Part shown: piece by piece, positions 3,110-11,254 of the stretch | How the letters are laid out: each line of letters opens with the position of its first letter | How positions within the stretch are numbered: position 1 is the first letter of the stretch | Made by a program: the position numbers and the translations under genes | Source: a virus | Taxonomy: Duplodnaviria > Heunggongvirae > Uroviricota > Caudoviricetes | Length of the DNA stretch: 11,573 bases | Direction: 5' to 3' (one strand) | Virus record (IMG/VR): IMGVR_UViG_2703718806_000003 | Notes under the pieces: generated by a model | Seen by the model: the letters and a program-made list of their open reading frames with translations, nothing else | Database searches by the model: none | What the model was told of the DNA's origin: nothing

Positions 3110-3299
3110 ACTACAGGCGCTGCGTCAGGCGCGCCTTGATTTATTAACCGGTAAACGGGTGGTGTCTGTCCAGAAAGATGGTCGCAGAATTGAATATACG
3201 GCGGCTTCTCTGGATGAGCTTAACCGGGCGATCAATGATGCGGAGTCGGTACTGGGGACAACCCGACGTCGCCGTCGTCCGCTGGGAGTGAGGTTATGA
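3093..3299 (+). CDS. W: Head-tail joining / head completion protein (lambda gpW homologue), 68 aa
   Basis: Translation ...LTGKRVVSVQKDGRRIEYTAASLDEL... matches lambda gpW ([24 protein letters not shown]), which is also 68 aa. GGAGG at 3083-3087 sits 5 nt upstream of the ATG. The start overlaps the A stop. Confidence 0.93.
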   Translation: MVTVAELQALRQARLDLLTGKRVVSVQKDGRRIEYTAASLDELNRAINDAESVLGTTRRRRRPLGVRL

Positions 3300-4888
3300 A
3301 ACGAACGCCTGTCCTGATTGATGTGAACGGCGTTCCGCTTCGTGAGAGTCTCAGCTACAACGGGGGCGGCGCAGGATTTGGCGGGCAAATGGCGGAGTGG
3401 TTGCCACCGGCGCAGAGTGCCGATGCAGCCCTGCTGCCTGCGTTGCGTCTGGGGAATGCCCGGGCAGATGATCTGGTGCGCAATAACGGGATAGCGGCTA
3501 ATGCGGTGGCCCTGCATAAGGATCATATTGTCGGGCATATGTTTCTGATCAGCTACCGTCCGAACTGGCGCTGGCTGGGGATGCGGGAGACTGCGGCAAA
3601 AAGTTTTGTCGATGAGGTGGAGGCGGCCTGGTCGGAATACGCCGAAGGGATGTTTGGCGAGATCGACGTGGAAGGGAAACGCACGTTTACGGAATTTATC
3701 CGTGAAGGTGTGGGCGTTCATGCGTTTAACGGCGAAATCTTTGTGCAGCCGGTCTGGGATACGGAGAGCACGCAACTGTTTCGTACGCGTTTTAAAGCCG
3801 TGAGTCCGAAACGGGTGGACACGCCAGGACACGGTATGGGGAACCGTTTTCTGCGGGCCGGTGTGGAGGTCGATCGATATGGTCGTGCCGTTGCGTACCA
3901 TATCTGTGAGGATGATTTTCCGTTCTCTGGGAGTGGACGATGGGAACGGATCCCGCGTGAACTTCCCACCGGGCGTCCGGCCATGCTGCATATTTTCGAG
4001 CCGGTGGAGGACGGGCAGACCCGTGGGGCCAATCAGTTTTACAGCGTCATGGAACGGCTGAAGATGCTCGATTCCCTGCAGGCAACACAGCTTCAGTCGG
4101 CCATAGTGAAGGCGATGTATGCAGCGACGATTGAAAGTGACCTTGATACCGAAAAGGCCTTTGAATATATCGCCGGTGCGCCGCAGGGGCAGAAGGATAA
4201 TCCGCTTATTAATATTCTGGATAAGTTCTCCACCTGGTATGACACGAATAGCGTGACGCTGGGCGGTGTTAAAATTCCGCACCTTTTCCCCGGTGATGAT
4301 CTGAAACTTCAGACCGCGCAGGATTCAGACAATGGATTTTCGGCGCTTGAACAGGCGCTGCTGCGGTATATCGCCGCCGGTCTTGGCGTTTCCTACGAAC
4401 AGTTGTCTCGTGATTACTCGAAGGTCAGTTATTCAAGTGCCCGCGCATCCGCCAATGAGTCGTGGCGCTATTTTATGGGGCGGCGAAAATTTATTGCGTC
4501 CCGGCTGGCCACGCAGATGTTTTCCTGCTGGCTGGAAGAGGCACTTCTTCGGGGGATTATTCGTCCGCCACGGGCACGTTTTGATTTTTATCAGGCGCGA
4601 TCAGCCTGGTCACGGGCTGAGTGGATTGGAGCCGGAAGAATGGCCATTGACGGGCTCAAGGAGGTTCAGGAATCAGTGATGCGCATTGAGGCCGGACTGA
4701 GCACGTATGAGAAAGAGCTGGCGCTGATGGGCGAGGATTATCAGGACATTTTCCGCCAGCAGGTCAGGGAATCTGCAGAGCGGGAAAAAGCCGGACTCTC
4801 ACGTCCGGTGTGGATAGCGCAGGCGTATCAGCAGCAGATAGCGGAGAGTCGCAGGCCGGAAGAGGAGACAACACCACGTGAGACGTAA
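3296..4888 (+). CDS. B: Portal protein (lambda gpB homologue), 530 aa
   Basis: Position and size match lambda gpB (~533 aa). An ATGA start/stop overlap with W indicates translational coupling. The N-terminus MKRTPVLIDVNG... and the long uninterrupted ORF with enteric codon usage are consistent. Homology is judged by recall of the lambda B family and gene order. Confidence 0.93.
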   Translation: MKRTPVLIDVNGVPLRESLSYNGGGAGFGGQMAEWLPPAQSADAALLPALRLGNARADDLVRNNGIAANAVALHKDHIVGHMFLISYRPNWRWLGMRETAAKSFVDEVEAAWSEYAEGMFGEIDVEGKRTFTEFIREGVGVHAFNGEIFVQPVWDTESTQLFRTRFKAVSPKRVDTPGHGMGNRFLRAGVEVDRYGRAVAYHICEDDFPFSGSGRWERIPRELPTGRPAMLHIFEPVEDGQTRGANQFYSVMERLKMLDSLQATQLQSAIVKAMYAATIESDLDTEKAFEYIAGAPQGQKDNPLINILDKFSTWYDTNSVTLGGVKIPHLFPGDDLKLQTAQDSDNGFSALEQALLRYIAAGLGVSYEQLSRDYSKVSYSSARASANESWRYFMGRRKFIASRLATQMFSCWLEEALLRGIIRPPRARFDFYQARSAWSRAEWIGAGRMAIDGLKEVQESVMRIEAGLSTYEKELALMGEDYQDIFRQQVRESAEREKAGLSRPVWIAQAYQQQIAESRRPEEETTPRET

Positions 4889-6383
4889 TCTTTCACACAT
4901 TATTGCCGCAGCATTCAATGAACCGCTGCTTCTGGAGCCCGCCTATGCGCGGGTTTTCTTTTGCGCGCTCGGGCGCGAGATGGGGGCAGCAAGTCTTTCG
5001 GTACCACAACAGCAGGTACAGCTTGATGCTCCCGGAATGCTGGCTGAAACGGACGAGTACATGGCCGGAGGTAAACGACCGGCCCGTGTTTACCGGGTGG
5101 TGAACGGTATTGCTGTACTGCCGGTGACCGGCACGCTGGTGCACCGGCTGGGCGGTATGCGGCCATTTTCCGGAATGACAGGCTATGACGGCATTGTCGC
5201 CTGTCTTCAGCAGGCAATGGCAGATAGCCAGGTGCGGGGCGTACTGCTGGACATTGACAGTCCTGGCGGGCAGGCCGCCGGCGCGTTTGACTGCGCTGAC
5301 ATGATTTACCGCCTCCGTCAGCAGAAGCCGGTCTGGGCACTGTGCAATGACACGGCCTGTTCTGCAGCCATGCTGCTGGCGTCGGCCTGCTCCCGACGGC
5401 TGGTTACCCAGACATCCCGTATCGGCTCCATTGGCGTGATGATGAGCCATGTCAGCTATGCCGGTCATCTGGCGCAGGCCGGGGTGGATATCACGCTGAT
5501 TTATGCCGGGGCGCACAAGGTGGATGGCAATCAGTTTGAAGCCTTACCGGCAGAGGTGCGTCAGGACATGCAGCAGCGGGTTGATGCGGCGCACCGGATG
5601 TTTGCCGAAAAAGTGGCGATGTATACGGGGCTGTCTGTGGAAGCTGTCACGGGGACAGAGGCTGCCGTTTTTGAAGGTCAGTCCGCTATTAAGGCCGGAC
5701 TGGCGGATGAATTAATCAATGCGTCGGATGCCATCAGCGTGATGGCTGCGGCGCTGAACACTCATGATACAGGAGGCACTATGCCGCAATTAACTGCAAC
5801 GGAAGCTGCCGCGCAGGAGAACCAGCGAGTGATGGGGATCCTGACGTGTCAGGAAGCGAAAGGACGTGAACAGCTTGCCACGATGCTGGCAGGACAACAG
5901 GGCATGAGCATTGAACAGGCCCGGGCGATTCTGGCCGCGGCGGCACCACAGCAGCCGGTGGCATCCGCGCAGAGTGAAGCCGATCGCATTATGGCGTGTG
6001 AAGAAGCGAAAGGTCGTGAACAACTGGCGGCAACGCTGGCGGCGATGCCGGAGATGACGGTGGAAAAAGCCCGCCCGATCCTCGCTGCCTCACCGCAGGC
6101 GAATGCCGGGCCCTCACTTCGTGATCAGATCATGGCCCTGGATGAGGCAAAAGGGGCAGAAGCGCAGGCTGAAAAACTGGCGGCCTGCCCGGGAATGACC
6201 GTGGAGAACGCCCGGGCTGTGCTGGCTGCGGGATCAGGTAAGGCCGAACCGGTCTCTGCATCCACAACCGCCTTGTTTGAACATTTCATGGCGAACCATT
6301 CACCGGCAGCGGTACAGGGTGGCGTGTCACAGACGTCAGCAGACGGTGATGCGGACGTGAAAATGCTCATGGCCATGCCATGA
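4878..6383 (+). CDS. C: Head maturation protease / scaffold (lambda gpC homologue, S49 ClpP-like peptidase family), 501 aa, GTG start
   Basis: N-terminus ...AFNEPLLLEPAYARVFFCAL... is nearly identical to recalled lambda gpC (MAFNEPLMLEPAYARVFFCAL). Also matching are GIAVLPVTGTLV, MTGYDGI, GVLLDIDSPGG..AGAFDCADMI, KPVWAL.ND...SAA.LLASA.SRRLVTQT.R.GSIGVMM and LIYAGAHKVDGN. No in-frame ATG is available upstream of the conserved region; GTG 4878 is preceded by GAGGAG at 4862-4867. It is about 60 aa longer than lambda gpC (~439 aa) because of C-terminal repeats. Confidence 0.9.
   Translation: MRRNLSHIIAAAFNEPLLLEPAYARVFFCALGREMGAASLSVPQQQVQLDAPGMLAETDEYMAGGKRPARVYRVVNGIAVLPVTGTLVHRLGGMRPFSGMTGYDGIVACLQQAMADSQVRGVLLDIDSPGGQAAGAFDCADMIYRLRQQKPVWALCNDTACSAAMLLASACSRRLVTQTSRIGSIGVMMSHVSYAGHLAQAGVDITLIYAGAHKVDGNQFEALPAEVRQDMQQRVDAAHRMFAEKVAMYTGLSVEAVTGTEAAVFEGQSAIKAGLADELINASDAISVMAAALNTHDTGGTMPQLTATEAAAQENQRVMGILTCQEAKGREQLATMLAGQQGMSIEQARAILAAAAPQQPVASAQSEADRIMACEEAKGREQLAATLAAMPEMTVEKARPILAASPQANAGPSLRDQIMALDEAKGAEAQAEKLAACPGMTVENARAVLAAGSGKAEPVSASTTALFEHFMANHSPAAVQGGVSQTSADGDADVKMLMAMP
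5781..6383 (+). CDS. Nu3: Putative nested in-frame scaffolding protein (lambda gpNu3 analogue) translated from an internal start of C, ~200 aa
   Basis: A perfect AGGAGG at 5771-5776 sits 4 nt upstream of in-frame ATG 5781 inside C. In lambda, Nu3 is expressed from an internal in-frame start in the 3' part of C. The downstream sequence is Ala/Glu/Gln-rich and repetitive, typical of a scaffold. The internal start is inferred, not demonstrated. Confidence 0.55.
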   Translation: MPQLTATEAAAQENQRVMGILTCQEAKGREQLATMLAGQQGMSIEQARAILAAAAPQQPVASAQSEADRIMACEEAKGREQLAATLAAMPEMTVEKARPILAASPQANAGPSLRDQIMALDEAKGAEAQAEKLAACPGMTVENARAVLAAGSGKAEPVSASTTALFEHFMANHSPAAVQGGVSQTSADGDADVKMLMAMP

Positions 6384-6418: not shown

Positions 6419-6766
6419 ATGGTGACGAAAACCATCACTGAACAGCGTGCGGAAGTACGTATTTTTGCCGGTAATGATCCGGCTCACACTGCCACAGGCA
6501 GCAGCGGGATTTCTTCTGCAACACCGGCTCTGACGCCCCTGATGCTGGATGAAGCCAGCGGGAAACTGGTGGTCTGGGACGGACAGAAAGCCGGTAGTGC
6601 GGTTGGCATACTGGTACTGCCGCTTGAAGGCACAGAGACGGTGCTGACCTATTACAAGTCGGGGACCTTTGCGACGGAGGCAATCCACTGGCCTGAAAGT
6701 GTGGATGAACACAAAAAGGCAAACGCCTTTGCTGGCAGTGCCCTGAGTCACGCGGCTCTGCCGTAA
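6419..6766 (+). CDS. D: Head decoration protein (lambda gpD homologue), 115 aa
   Basis: Translation contains DPAHTAT, TPLMLD, KLVVWDG, AVGIL, YYKSGTF, WPE and AFAGSA in the same order as lambda gpD (~110 aa). It lies between C and E as in lambda. Confidence 0.93.
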   Translation: MVTKTITEQRAEVRIFAGNDPAHTATGSSGISSATPALTPLMLDEASGKLVVWDGQKAGSAVGILVLPLEGTETVLTYYKSGTFATEAIHWPESVDEHKKANAFAGSALSHAALP

Positions 6767-6823: not shown

Positions 6824-7852
6824 ATGGGATTGTTTACGACCCGCCAGTTGCTCGGTTATACCGAACAAAAAGTGAAATTTCGTGCGCTGTTTCTGGAACT
6901 GTTTTTCCGCCGTACGGTGAATTTCCACACTGAAGAGGTGATGCTGGACAAAATTACCGGAAAAACGCCTGTGGCGGCCTATGTCTCCCCGGTCGTTGAA
7001 GGAAAAGTGTTGCGTCATCGTGGTGGTGAAACCCGTGTGTTACGTCCGGGCTATGTCAAGCCGAAACACGAATTTAATTACCAGCAGGCGGTTGAGCGCC
7101 TTCCTGGTGAAGATCCGACTCAACTGAACGATCAGACTTACCGCCGTCTGCGTATCATTACCGATAACCTCAAACAGGAAGAGCACGCGATTGTCCAGGT
7201 GGAAGAAATGCAGGCAGTAAATGCTGTGTTGTATGGCAAATACACCATGGAAGGAGACCAGTTCGAGAAAATTGAGGTCGATTTTGGCAGGTCGACGAAG
7301 AATAACATCACTCAGGGTAGTGGTAAGGAGTGGTCAAAACAGGATCGTGACACGTTCGATCCTACACATGATATTGATCTCTACTGCGACCAGGCCAGCG
7401 GTCTTGTGAATATTGCCATTATGGACGGTATCGTCTGGCGTCTGCTGAATGGCTTTAAGCTGTTCCGTGAAAAACTGGATACCCGTCGCGGCTCAAATTC
7501 ACAACTCGAAACGGCAGTGAAAGACCTGGGGGCGGTGGTGTCCTTCAAAGGGTATTACGGCGATCTGGCCATTGTGGTGGCGAAAACGTCTTATGTGGCA
7601 GAGGACGGTACCGAAAAACGTTATCTGCCGGAGGGCTCGCTGGTTCTGGGGAATACGGCAGCAGATGGCATTCGTTGTTACGGTGCCATTCAGGATGCGC
7701 AGGCGTTGTCCGAAGGTGTGGTGGCCTCTTCCCGTTATCCGAAACACTGGCAGACCGTGGGCGATCCGGCCCGTGAATTCACCATGACGCAGTCCGCGCC
7801 GCTGATGGTGTTGCCGGACCCGGATGAGTTTGTGGTGGTACAGGTGAAATAA
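6824..7852 (+). CDS. E: Major capsid protein (lambda gpE homologue), 342 aa
   Basis: Translation contains YVSPVVEG, PGYVKPKHE, RRLRII, AIVQVEEMQAVNAVLYGKYTMEGD, LDTRRGSNSQLETAVKDLG, GDLAIVV and GDPAREFTMTQSAPLMVLPDPDEFVVVQ, closely matching recalled lambda gpE (~341 aa). An AAAGGA ribosome-binding site lies upstream of ATG 6824. Confidence 0.95.
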   Translation: MGLFTTRQLLGYTEQKVKFRALFLELFFRRTVNFHTEEVMLDKITGKTPVAAYVSPVVEGKVLRHRGGETRVLRPGYVKPKHEFNYQQAVERLPGEDPTQLNDQTYRRLRIITDNLKQEEHAIVQVEEMQAVNAVLYGKYTMEGDQFEKIEVDFGRSTKNNITQGSGKEWSKQDRDTFDPTHDIDLYCDQASGLVNIAIMDGIVWRLLNGFKLFREKLDTRRGSNSQLETAVKDLGAVVSFKGYYGDLAIVVAKTSYVAEDGTEKRYLPEGSLVLGNTAADGIRCYGAIQDAQALSEGVVASSRYPKHWQTVGDPAREFTMTQSAPLMVLPDPDEFVVVQVK

Positions 7853-10382: not shown

Positions 10383-10814
10383 ATGTTTCTGAAAACAGAA
10401 CAATTTGAATATAACGGTGTGTCTGTCACGCTTTCTGAGCTGTCTGCGCTGCAGCGTATTGAGCATCTTGCCCTCCTGAAACGGCGGGCAGAAGAGGCTG
10501 AAGCCAGCGGTAACCTGCAGGTGAGCGTGGAGGACCTTGTCAGAACCGGGGCGTTTCTGGTGGCGATGTCCCTGTGGCATAACCATCCACAGAAAACGGC
10601 GTCACCGTCAATGAATGAGGCCGTGATGAAGATAGAGCAGGAAGTGCTCACCACCTGGCCTGCCGATGCCATTGCCCGGGCGGAAGACGTTGTGTTGTGC
10701 CTGTCCGGGATGATCGAAGCTGTTCGTCCGGATACTGATATCACCGAAGTGGCGAAAAATAACGCGCTGACTGATGATGATTTTTCTGCGGGAAAGTCTT
10801 CGACGGCGAGCTGA
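10383..10814 (+). CDS. G: Tail assembly chaperone (lambda gpG homologue), 143 aa
   Basis: Translation MFLKTEQFEYNGVSVTLSELSALQRIEHLALLKRRAE...RTGAFLVAMSLWHNHPQKT..PSMNEAV..IEQEVLTTWP is nearly identical to recalled lambda gpG (MFLKTESFEHNGVTVTLSELSALQRIEHLALMKRQAE...). Confidence 0.95.
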   Translation: MFLKTEQFEYNGVSVTLSELSALQRIEHLALLKRRAEEAEASGNLQVSVEDLVRTGAFLVAMSLWHNHPQKTASPSMNEAVMKIEQEVLTTWPADAIARAEDVVLCLSGMIEAVRPDTDITEVAKNNALTDDDFSAGKSSTAS

Positions 10815-11254
10815 ACTTTGCCCTCAGACTGGCGCGTGAGATGGGGAGACCCGACTGGCGCGCCATGCTTGCCGGGATGACATCCACCGAATATGCCGAC
10901 TGGCGACGTTTTTACCGCACGCATTATTTTCACGATACCCAGCTGGATATGCATTTTTCCGGGCTGACGTACGCCGTACTCAGCCTGTTTTTTTGCGATC
11001 CGGATATGCATCCCTCGGATTTCAGTCTGCTTGTCCCCCGGCGTGAGGAAGCGCAGACGGAGAGGCCGGATGAGGAAGACATGCTGATGCAGAAAGCGGC
11101 AGGACTTGCCGGAGGCGTCCGGTTCGGTGGGGAGGGAGGGGGCGATATTTCACCTTCTGCGGATGTGGTGGATGTCAGCGAGGATGATGTTGCATTAATG
11201 ATGGCTTCAGCGGGGATTTCCGGAGGTGTGAGATATGTCCCAGCCGGTTGGTGA
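10383..11254 (+). CDS. T: Tail assembly chaperone G-T fusion produced by -1 frameshift at 10790-10796; the T-frame portion ends at 11254
   Basis: The -1 frame downstream of the slippery site reads VFDGELNFALRLAREMGRPDWRAMLAGMTSTEYADW.RFY.THYFHD..LDMHFSGLTY.VLSLFF.DPDMHP.DFSLL...QKAAGLAGGVRFG, matching the T portion of recalled lambda gpGT. The T frame has no plausible independent start with a ribosome-binding site. Coordinates span both frames; the feature is not a single continuous reading frame. Confidence 0.85.
10790..10796 (+). promoter_or_regulatory. Programmed -1 ribosomal frameshift slippery heptamer G_GGA_AAG at the 3' end of G
   Basis: Read directly: gcGGGAAAGtc, with GGA and AAG in the G zero frame (10791 and 10794 are codon first positions). 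This is the same heptamer used for lambda G-T frameshifting. The -1 frame continues open from here into the T ORF. Confidence 0.85.

What the first reader, a model, noticed from the sequence alone, without database searches (positions are those of the whole stretch)
5826..6270. Three tandem ~47-53 aa repeats enlarge the C/Nu3 scaffold region
The C-terminal part of C contains three successive imperfect copies of a motif: RVMGILTCQEAKGREQLATMLAGQQGMSIEQARAILAAAAPQ, then RIMACEEAKGREQLAATLAAMPEMTVEKARPILAASPQ, then QIMALDEAKGAEAQAEKLAACPGMTVENARAVLAAGSG. Copy spacing is 159 nt and then 141 nt, in frame. Lambda gpC/Nu3, as I recall it, carries a single copy (RIMGILNCEEAHGREEQARVLAETPGMTVKTARRILAAAP). 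This triplication accounts for C being about 60 aa longer than lambda C. Because the scaffold domain sets procapsid assembly, a change in copy number could alter scaffold stoichiometry or head-size control, or it may be a neutral replication-slippage expansion.
Basis: partly seen in the sequence, partly recalled or inferred. Interest (0 to 1): 0.55.

Follow-up and report, generated by a model that had tools for sequence, protein, structure and literature searches.

The report
Phage 21-type triplicated scaffold module
The head protease/scaffold gene of this E. coli lambdoid prophage carries three diverged copies of a ~40-residue helical module that lambda has once, but this is the "Tri box" triplication already annotated in phage 21 and found in about a third of complete E. 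coli genomes, so it is real but ordinary.

Summary
The C-terminal (Nu3-equivalent) part of the C-like gene (4878-6383) has three tandem in-frame units (nt 5817-5951, 5976-6098, 6117-6239). Pairwise scores are 12-16 SD above composition-matched shuffles. Lambda C has exactly one unit.

It is not new. The gene is 96% identical to phage 21 gene 5/6, and GenBank record M81255.1 already marks "Tri1/Tri/Tri3 box" repeat regions at exactly these positions. The same full-length allele is in 1,865 of 5,426 complete E. coli genomes, and Salmonella Gifsy-1 also has three units.

A single copy is the norm: 85 of 86 unit-bearing 50%-identity representatives chosen by protease domain alone have one unit.

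The triplication is old and maintained by selection. Units share 59-68% nucleotide identity with near-saturated third positions, they group by position across E. coli and Salmonella, and dN/dS is well below 1. It is not a recent neutral slippage event. I found 2-unit deletion forms and a 4-unit allele.

AlphaFold models each unit as three short helices joined by floppy linkers. The unit is the only conserved sequence element of Nu3-type scaffolds and stays with the scaffold when scaffold and protease are separate genes. Its binding partner is unproven. I found no evidence for altered head size.

The parts
4878..6383 (+). C-like gene (phage 21 gene 5 equivalent): prohead protease fused to scaffold, 501 aa, GTG start overlapping the end of the portal gene
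   Evidence: ORF; translation; 96.2% nt identity to phage 21 gene 5; 21 of 501 aa differ; the exact protein is in NCBI as an E. coli S49 family peptidase
5313..5756 (+). Peptidase S49 catalytic domain (aa 146-293)
   Evidence: Pfam PF01343, E = 4.4e-36
5771..5776 (+). AGGAGG ribosome-binding site for the nested scaffold gene
   Evidence: Read from the sequence; corresponds to the RBS annotated for phage 21 gene 6
5781..6383 (+). Nested in-frame scaffold gene (phage 21 gene 6, lambda Nu3 equivalent), 200 aa against 131 aa in lambda
   Evidence: The ATG at 5781 aligns with lambda C Met309; annotated as gene 6 / scaffolding protein in M81255.1 and OL657228.1
5817..5951 (+). Unit 1 (Tri1 box), which keeps the ancestral N-terminal 'ENxRVMGIL' form seen in lambda
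   Evidence: HMM domain aa 314-358; Tri1 box maps to 5848-5951; 76-81% identical to unit 1 of other multi-unit relatives
5952..5975 (+). Linker 1 (QPVASAQS), low-confidence and probably flexible
   Evidence: AlphaFold pLDDT below 50 at scaffold residues 57-63
5976..6098 (+). Unit 2 (Tri box)
   Evidence: HMM domain aa 367-407; Tri box maps to 5988-6098; closest to Salmonella P0028 unit 2, 72%
6099..6116 (+). Linker 2 (ANAGPS)
   Evidence: Lies between the HMM domains; mean pLDDT for the 10-residue block is 66
6117..6239 (+). Unit 3 (Tri3 box)
   Evidence: HMM domain aa 414-454; Tri3 box maps to 6129-6242; closest to Salmonella P0028 unit 3, 69%
6240..6380 (+). C-terminal tail. It begins with a partial unit-like helix (TALFEHFMANH, about nt 6258-6299) that corresponds to lambda's 'TALDRLMQGAP' and ends in an acidic stretch followed by a hydrophobic end
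   Evidence: The 15-nt direct-repeat family has a third copy at 6278-6292; AlphaFold helix at scaffold residues 160-173; tails compared

Best explanation
This is the phage 21-type allele of the lambda C/Nu3 head-assembly gene, sitting in an E. coli lambdoid prophage.

Shown here: the gene encodes an S49 prohead protease. Its C-terminal 200 residues are also expected to be made separately, from an internal in-frame start, as the scaffolding protein (phage 21 gp6, lambda Nu3). That shared region holds three diverged tandem copies ('Tri boxes') of the one sequence element conserved across Nu3-type scaffolds. The element is a ~40-residue module with the consensus I(M/L)xxxEAKGRExLAxxLAxxPGM(T/S)xExAxx(I/L)LAAxP and is predicted to form three short helices. 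The triplication is ancient, inherited vertically in a clade of E. coli and Salmonella prophages, and kept by purifying selection.

Inferred: each unit is an independent interaction module on a flexible string. Through it the scaffold, and the protease that shares it, is recruited into the assembling shell of E-type capsid protein, by binding the capsid protein and/or by self-association. Three units would then make the phage 21 scaffold trivalent where lambda's is monovalent. After assembly the protease would destroy the scaffold. The head is expected to be built like lambda's, with no change in size class.
For: Identity: 96.2% nt identity to phage 21 gene 5/6 over all 1506 nt, with Tri1/Tri/Tri3 box features at the same positions and a gene 6 internal start with RBS. 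The gene order Nu1-A-W-B-C-D-E-FI-FII-Z-U is confirmed by Pfam. The repeat is real: z = 12-16 against shuffles, and PHROG 8399 hits three times. Lambda has one unit. One unit is the norm: of 150 representatives chosen by protease domain alone, 85 have one, 1 has three and 64 have none, and about 100 phage records match only one unit. The triplication is old and selected: 59-68% nt identity and 35-44% third-position identity between units; units group by position across E. coli and Salmonella; Gifsy-1 has three units; dN/dS is roughly 0.03-0.3 in units wherever there are enough substitutions; the full-length allele is in 1,865 of 5,426 E. coli genomes, and only 5 of 1,870 matching genomes lack a match covering at least 80% of the query. 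Module structure: AlphaFold gives three similar three-helix units at pLDDT about 76-82, linkers at low pLDDT (about 57-66, with a stretch below 50 in linker 1) and pTM 0.27. The unit belongs to the scaffold function: it is the only conserved element between disordered polar stretches in 9 distant phages, and in Sinorhizobium phi2LM21 it sits in a separate 184-aa ORF between the protease and the D/E genes. Lambda Nu3 is reported to interact with E, C and itself and to be needed for B incorporation (PMC3224144). Helix-turn-helix elements of the P22 and phi29 scaffolds bind the capsid protein N-arm (PMC11922011).
Against: The binding partner of the unit has never been mapped, and the GenBank note itself says 'function unknown; putative'. 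Lambda gpNu3 is described as intrinsically disordered in the title of Medina et al. 2011 (cited), so the predicted helices may form only on binding. The AlphaFold alignment had only 13 sequences. No solved or predicted structure gives a significant match. The unit co-occurs with lambda-proximal E-type capsid proteins (9 of 9 loci), but three unit-negative loci also have Pfam Phage_cap_E capsid proteins. The association may therefore reflect only shared descent. Rare 2-unit forms exist, and whether they are functional is unknown.
Confidence: 0.85

Rival explanations
1. The units act in something other than capsid-protein binding. They might be scaffold self-association or portal (gpB/gp4) recruitment modules, or repeated recognition or cleavage sites for the gpC-type protease, while the extreme C-terminal tail is the real capsid-binding element.
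For: Lambda Nu3 is reported to self-associate and to be required for portal incorporation (PMC3224144). The tail after the last unit also keeps a weakly conserved '(A/F)xx(L/A)M' motif and an acidic stretch in distant relatives. In many scaffolds the extreme C-terminus binds the capsid protein (general knowledge, not tested here).
Against: The unit is far better conserved than the tail across distant phages. No data map any of these activities to the unit.
Confidence: 0.25
2. The triplication changes head size or triangulation number, or scaffold stoichiometry.
For: Scaffolds can determine size in other systems (P4 Sid, SaPI CpmB; general knowledge). Some phages with the 3-unit allele have slightly larger genome records, up to 54.4 kb.
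Against: The capsid protein is 342 aa against 341 aa in lambda, 61% identical and in the same Pfam family, and the decoration-protein gene is present. Genome sizes of phages with three units (42.9-54.4 kb) and of lambda-like coliphages with one unit (about 42-51 kb) overlap, and phage 21 itself is 42.9 kb. The 4-unit allele is paired with a 342-aa capsid protein 82% identical to the window's. From memory, not checked here: the phage 21 Shp decoration protein can substitute on lambda heads, and lambda-21 hybrids are viable.
Confidence: 0.05
3. It is a recent, selectively neutral expansion by replication slippage or unequal crossing-over.
For: Tandem in-frame copies are the typical product of such events. 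Copy number does vary: there are 2-unit deletion forms with chimeric junctions and a 4-unit allele.
Against: Units are only 59-68% identical at the nucleotide level, with third positions near saturation, and TRF finds nothing. The three units are orthologous by position in Salmonella relatives. dN/dS is well below 1. The 3-unit length is nearly invariant across 1,865 E. coli genomes.
Confidence: 0.03
4. The similarity is a chance or low-complexity artefact of an alanine-rich region.
For: The region is rich in Ala, Glu and Gln.
Against: Composition-preserving shuffles never reach the observed scores (0 of 2000; z = 12-16). An external profile hits three times. The motif is conserved in phages of distant hosts.
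Confidence: 0.01

Closest known systems
Phage 21 gp5/gp6 (head protease / scaffold) with Tri1, Tri and Tri3 boxes, GenBank M81255.1 and OL657228.1
   Same: 96.2% nt identity over the whole gene. Same length (501 aa), same internal start and RBS, and the same three repeat boxes at the same positions. Same flanking portal, shp/D and major capsid genes.
   Different: 21 amino-acid substitutions, 11 of them in the scaffold part (positions above 300). The window is a prophage allele found in E. coli chromosomes and is not the laboratory phage.
Lambda gpC / gpNu3
   Same: Same family and architecture: an S49 protease with a nested in-frame scaffold sharing the C-terminus. About 60% identity in the protease domain. 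The internal Met aligns with lambda Met309, and unit 1 and the tail are homologous.
   Different: Lambda has one unit, a 36-aa longer polar leader and a 131-aa scaffold. Here there are three units, a 12-aa leader and a 200-aa scaffold.
Salmonella prophage Gifsy-1 STM2605 (lambda gpC homologue)
   Same: Three units in the same order, 498 aa, with a nested 'MPEL...' start region. Its own annotation cites phage 21 gp5/gp6.
   Different: The protease-coding part is about 73% identical in nucleotide sequence, and the scaffold part is too diverged for a megablast match. The tail differs.
Four-unit E. coli prophage allele (P0029 / locus L008)
   Same: Same gene family and gene context (D, a 342-aa E-type capsid protein, FI, FII). 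Unit 1 is 79% identical to the window's.
   Different: Four units with an exact 138-nt period, and units 2-4 are 81-92% identical to each other. Found in about 105 of 5,426 E. coli genomes, against 1,865 for the 3-unit allele.
P22 gp8 and phi29 gp7 scaffolding helix-turn-helix capsid-binding elements (analogy only)
   Same: Small helical hairpin-type elements on otherwise flexible scaffold proteins that contact the capsid protein N-arm (PMC11922011). The units here are predicted to be short helix-turn-helix-like modules.
   Different: No detectable sequence or fold match. Those scaffolds carry one such element and are not fused to a protease.

Membership tests
Lambda C/Nu3 - phage 21 gp5/gp6 protease-scaffold family | N-terminal S49 (SppA/ClpP-like) serine peptidase domain | tested here: met
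   Pfam PF01343 E = 4.4e-36, aa 146-293; PHROG 53 'head maturation protease' E = 7e-228
Lambda C/Nu3 - phage 21 gp5/gp6 protease-scaffold family | Nested in-frame internal start producing a scaffold that shares the C-terminus | tested here: inconclusive
   An ATG at 5781 preceded by AGGAGG aligns with lambda Met309 and with annotated phage 21 gene 6. The sequence features are met, but actual translation cannot be tested with these tools.
Lambda C/Nu3 - phage 21 gp5/gp6 protease-scaffold family | Position between a lambda-family portal gene and the D-type decoration and E-type major capsid genes | tested here: met
   Pfam: Phage_portal_2 (3296-4885), HDPD (6419-6763), Phage_cap_E (6824-7849)
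Lambda C/Nu3 - phage 21 gp5/gp6 protease-scaffold family | At least one conserved Nu3 core unit (I(M/L)..EAKGRE..A..LA..PGMT.E.A..ILAA.P) | tested here: met
   Three HMM domains of 76-83 bits; PHROG 8399 hits in three stretches
Phage 21 'Tri box' sub-type (three units) | Three tandem units at positions homologous to the Tri1, Tri and Tri3 boxes of M81255.1 | tested here: met
   The features map to window 5848-5951, 5988-6098 and 6129-6242 through a gap-free 1506-nt alignment
Phage 21 'Tri box' sub-type (three units) | Scaffolding activity and proteolytic removal during procapsid maturation | not testable with these tools
   Requires genetics or biochemistry. Inferred from lambda Nu3/C (PMC3224144).
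P22-type scaffold helix-turn-helix coat-binding domain | Structural similarity to the solved C-terminal helix-turn-helix domain, and binding to the capsid protein N-arm | tested here: not met
   No PDB sequence hit at E <= 1. Foldseek against the PDB gave one non-significant hit, to a designed repeat protein. Binding is not testable. This is only an analogy.

The most novel reading that the evidence does not exclude
The copy number of the Nu3 core module (1 in lambda and most relatives, 3 in the phage 21/Gifsy clade, 4 in a minor E. coli clade, with rare 2-unit deletion forms) could be an evolvable valency setting of the scaffold. Under this reading it is kept by selection because it tunes how many capsid subunits, or scaffold partners, one scaffold chain bridges, and it trades off against the long disordered leader that single-unit scaffolds carry. 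A systematic account of this variation does not seem to be in the accessible literature.
Probability: 0.25. Interest if true: 0.35.

Novelty: already known. Interest (0 to 1): 0.12.

Why it matters
It matters little as a discovery. The triplication has been annotated in the phage 21 head operon since the early 1990s, and the allele is one of the two common forms of this gene in E. coli prophages. This check adds some context:
- Single copy is the family norm.
- The triplication is ancient and under purifying selection.
- Natural 2- and 4-unit variants exist.
- The unit is the only conserved element of Nu3-type scaffolds, including cases where scaffold and protease are separate genes.

This makes the unit a sensible target for anyone mapping how lambda-type scaffolds engage the shell, and the natural 1/2/3/4-unit series is a ready-made valency experiment.

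Tried and rejected
- **DNA-level repeat detection.** TRF found no DNA-level repeat in the array, and the repeat finder gave only 13-17 nt seeds. The repeat is visible only at the protein level.
- **First homologue search.** Searching with the scaffold part returned mostly contig-end fragments, which were useful for spotting variants but not for an unbiased count. I replaced it with a protease-domain-only search of 50%-identity representatives.
- **Domain and structure libraries.** Pfam has no family for the unit. There is no PDB sequence homologue. Foldseek against the PDB and against BFVD gave nothing significant, only local matches to single units in other S49 prohead proteases.
- **Literature.** The original phage 21 head-gene paper (Smith and Feiss, Gene 1993, recalled from memory) and Medina et al. 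2011 on gpNu3 are not held. The phage 21 genome announcement does not discuss the scaffold. No cryo-EM description of Nu3 was found.
- **Test of capsid binding.** I asked whether the presence of the unit tracks the capsid protein family. Nine of 9 unit-positive loci have a lambda-proximal E-type capsid protein, but 3 of 4 unit-negative loci also have Pfam Phage_cap_E proteins. The association is confounded by shared descent, and I do not count it as support.
- **Not attempted.** I did not try a scaffold-capsid complex prediction, because the structure tool takes a single chain built from window sequences.
Full report
**What the window is.** The 11.6-kb window is the left arm of a lambdoid prophage. 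Pfam identifies, in order, Nu1, terminase A, W, a lambda-family portal (B), an S49 peptidase (C), a D-type decoration protein, an E-type major capsid protein, FI, FII, Z and U. The whole window matches E. coli chromosomes at 96-98% identity over 96-98% of its length. The exact 501-aa C-like protein is already in NCBI as 'S49 family peptidase [Escherichia coli]' on 39 contigs.

**Checking the observation.** The C-like ORF (4878-6383, GTG start) translates to 501 aa. Pairwise local alignment scores between the units (BLOSUM62) are 105, 83 and 102. Composition-preserving shuffles give 25 +/- 5, so z is 12-16 and none of 2000 shuffles reaches the observed value.

A profile built from the three units plus the lambda unit finds exactly three domains of 76-83 bits in the window protein and exactly one in lambda C. 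Independently, PHROG 8399, a 131-aa lambda-Nu3-type 'head scaffolding protein' profile, hits the window protein in three stretches.

At the DNA level the repeat is not detectable by Tandem Repeats Finder. Only short 13-17 nt seeds are found. One of these families has a third copy in the tail at 6278-6292, which suggests that the tail begins with a partial fourth unit.

**Comparison with lambda.** An alignment with lambda C (NC_001416) shows about 60% identity in the protease domain and alignment of the window's internal Met (nt 5781) with lambda Met309.

The 62-aa length difference is a net figure: +96 aa for units 2-3 and their linkers, +8 aa of tail, +1 aa, and -43 aa upstream of unit 1. Most of that deficit is a 36-aa polar leader that lambda Nu3 has and this protein lacks.

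**It is already known.** The gene is 96.2% identical over all 1506 nt to phage 21 gene 5, with 21 of 501 residues different. The 1990s GenBank record of the phage 21 head operon (M81255.1) annotates three repeat_region features inside gene 6, the Nu3 equivalent.

The record also annotates the internal RBS and the start of gene 6, corresponding to AGGAGG at 5771-5776 and ATG at 5781 here. The modern phage 21 genome (OL657228.1) calls the two products 'capsid protease/scaffolding protein' and 'scaffolding protein'. I could not retrieve the original paper, which I recall as Smith and Feiss, Gene 1993.

**How common each copy number is.** To avoid bias from the repeats, I searched 1.84 billion 50%-identity representatives with the protease domain only (aa 1-300) and counted units in the best 150 hits. 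Eighty-five have one unit, one (P0094, 63% identical in the protease) has three, and 64 have none. About half of the 64 are truncated or lack a C-terminal extension, and the rest carry a different extension.

In the phage collection, 20 records carry the full three-unit region. About 100 others match a single unit, including lambda, 434, N15, phi80, HK225, and Xylella and Xanthomonas phages.

| Allele in 5,426 complete E. coli genomes | Genomes with a full-length match |
|---|---|
| Lambda-type, 1 unit | 3,201 |
| Phage 21-type, 3 units | 1,865 |
| 4 units (upper bound; 20 records match at only 80-90% identity) | about 105 |

Salmonella Gifsy-1 also has three units. So one copy is the family norm, and the triplicated form is a common, clade-specific allele.

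**Age and selection.** The unit cores share 59-68% nucleotide identity, and third-codon-position identity is only 35-44%. Units group by position and not by genome. Window unit 1 is 76-81% identical to unit 1 of E. coli, Salmonella and other multi-unit proteins. Unit 2 is closest to unit 2 of Salmonella P0028 (72%), and unit 3 to its unit 3 (69%). Unit 1 retains the ancestral 'ENxRVMGIL' N-terminal form seen in single-copy proteins.

Between E. coli alleles, dN/dS in the units is roughly 0.03-0.3 wherever there are enough substitutions to estimate it, similar to the protease domain. A recent neutral slippage event is therefore excluded.

Copy number does still change. P0022 has two units with a chimeric unit 1/2 junction (EQAR|PILAAS). 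P0018 and P0013 have lost unit 2. P0092 has a larger deletion. The 4-unit allele has an exact 138-nt period, and its units 2-4 are 81-92% identical in protein and 76-79% identical in DNA. It lies in an intact-looking head operon.

**Structure.** AlphaFold on the 200-aa scaffold part, with a 13-sequence alignment, gives three similar modules of three short helices each, at pLDDT about 76-82. The linkers are low-confidence (block means about 57-66, with residues 57-63 below 50). One more helix begins the tail (residues 160-173). pTM is 0.27, so there is no fixed arrangement between units.

No PDB sequence homologue exists. Foldseek finds nothing significant in the PDB. In BFVD it finds only local 51-59-column matches to single units in other S49 prohead proteases.

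One caveat applies. Lambda gpNu3 is described experimentally as intrinsically disordered (Medina et al. 2011, cited), so the helices may form only on binding.

**What the unit does.** Across nine distant phages (hosts Aeromonas, Vibrio, Xylella, Pseudomonas, Salmonella phage Chi, Rhodobacter, Rhizobium and Sinorhizobium), the region after the protease consists of a variable polar or acidic stretch, one well-conserved unit, and a loosely conserved tail. In Sinorhizobium phi2LM21 the protease has no extension, and the unit lies in a separate 184-aa ORF between the protease and the D/E genes. The unit therefore belongs to the scaffold function and not to the protease.

Burkholderia phi644-2 has an HK97-family capsid protein, a family in which the scaffold is part of the capsid protein itself (as in HK97; PMC10275583). 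Its protease has no extension at all.

All nine unit-positive loci have a capsid protein that phmmer detects from the window's E-type protein. However, three of the four unit-negative loci also have Pfam Phage_cap_E proteins. The co-occurrence can be explained by shared descent, and I do not count it as evidence of direct binding.

Published interaction data for lambda list Nu3-E, Nu3-Nu3 and Nu3-C contacts and a need for Nu3 in portal incorporation, without mapping them to regions (PMC3224144). In P22 and phi29 a helix-turn-helix element of the scaffold binds the capsid protein N-arm (PMC11922011).

My best inference is that each unit is an interaction module on a flexible string, so the phage 21-type scaffold, and the protease that shares it, is trivalent where lambda's is monovalent. 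The partner could be the capsid protein, the scaffold itself or the portal, and this is not established.

**Head size.** Nothing supports a change. The capsid protein is 342 aa against 341 aa in lambda and 61% identical to it. The 4-unit allele pairs with a 342-aa capsid protein 82% identical to the window's. Genome sizes of phages carrying three units (42.9-54.4 kb) overlap those of lambda-like coliphages carrying one unit (about 42-51 kb).

**Verdict.** The feature is a long-annotated property of the phage 21 head module and is very common in E. coli prophages. Novelty: already known. Interest: low.

Noticed in passing
window 10790-10796 (with ORFs 10383-10814 and 10841-11254): A GGGAAAG slippery heptamer lies just before the stop of the G-like ORF and is followed by a T-like ORF. 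This is the canonical lambda G/GT -1 frameshift arrangement for the tail assembly chaperones. Two matches in the window is no more than chance gives, so the position is what makes it meaningful.
   Followed up: partly
window about 6100-6240 (linker 2 / unit 3), compared with loci L004 and L007: There is a mosaic recombination breakpoint inside the repeat array. The E. coli 05-3629 allele (L004) has a single nonsynonymous difference from the window in the 300 protease-domain codons, few differences in unit 1 and moderate divergence in unit 2. Its unit 3 then shows dS of about 0.96 and dN of 0.14. Phage PhiR5_1 (L007) shows the same jump.
   Followed up: partly
locus L008 1-1043 (protein P0029): A four-unit allele of the same gene, with an exact 138-nt period and units 2-4 that are 81-92% identical to each other. 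It lies in an intact-looking head operon and is present in about 105 of 5,426 complete E. coli genomes.
   Followed up: yes
proteins P0022, P0018, P0013, P0092: Rare natural deletion forms. P0022 has two units with a chimeric unit 1/2 junction (EQAR|PILAAS), as expected from unequal recombination between units. P0018 and P0013 lack unit 2. P0092 is deleted from the end of the protease to the middle of unit 2. Whether any of them is functional is unknown.
   Followed up: partly
locus L014 4431-4985 (Sinorhizobium phage phi2LM21 p34): The conserved scaffold unit lies in a separate 184-aa 'hypothetical protein' ORF between a short (302-aa) protease and the D/E genes. This looks like an unfused, unannotated Nu3-type scaffold gene. 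Pfam finds nothing in it.
   Followed up: partly
locus L003 2633-3238 (lambda nu3 as annotated in NC_001416): The RefSeq lambda record annotates nu3 as 201 aa (5132-5737). The phage 21 gene 6 start and the window's internal ATG instead align with lambda C Met309, which gives a 131-aa product.
   Followed up: partly
window 6278-6292: This is the third copy of a 15-nt direct-repeat family (the others are at 5981 and 6122, the starts of units 2 and 3). It falls in the tail (FEHFMA), so the tail appears to begin with a partial fourth unit, and lambda's tail does the same (DRLMQ). This would fit duplication by unequal crossing-over within the first helix.
   Followed up: partly
window 4878-4888: The C-like gene starts at a GTG that overlaps the last 11 nt of the portal gene (3296-4888), as in phage 21. 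This suggests translational coupling.
   Followed up: no
phage 21 record OL657228.1, positions 5314-5327 and 5548-5561 (inside gene 5/6, minus strand): The record marks two 'CII binding site' features inside the scaffold coding region, based purely on the pattern TTGYNNNNNNTTGY. I did not check whether they are conserved in the window or mean anything.
   Followed up: no
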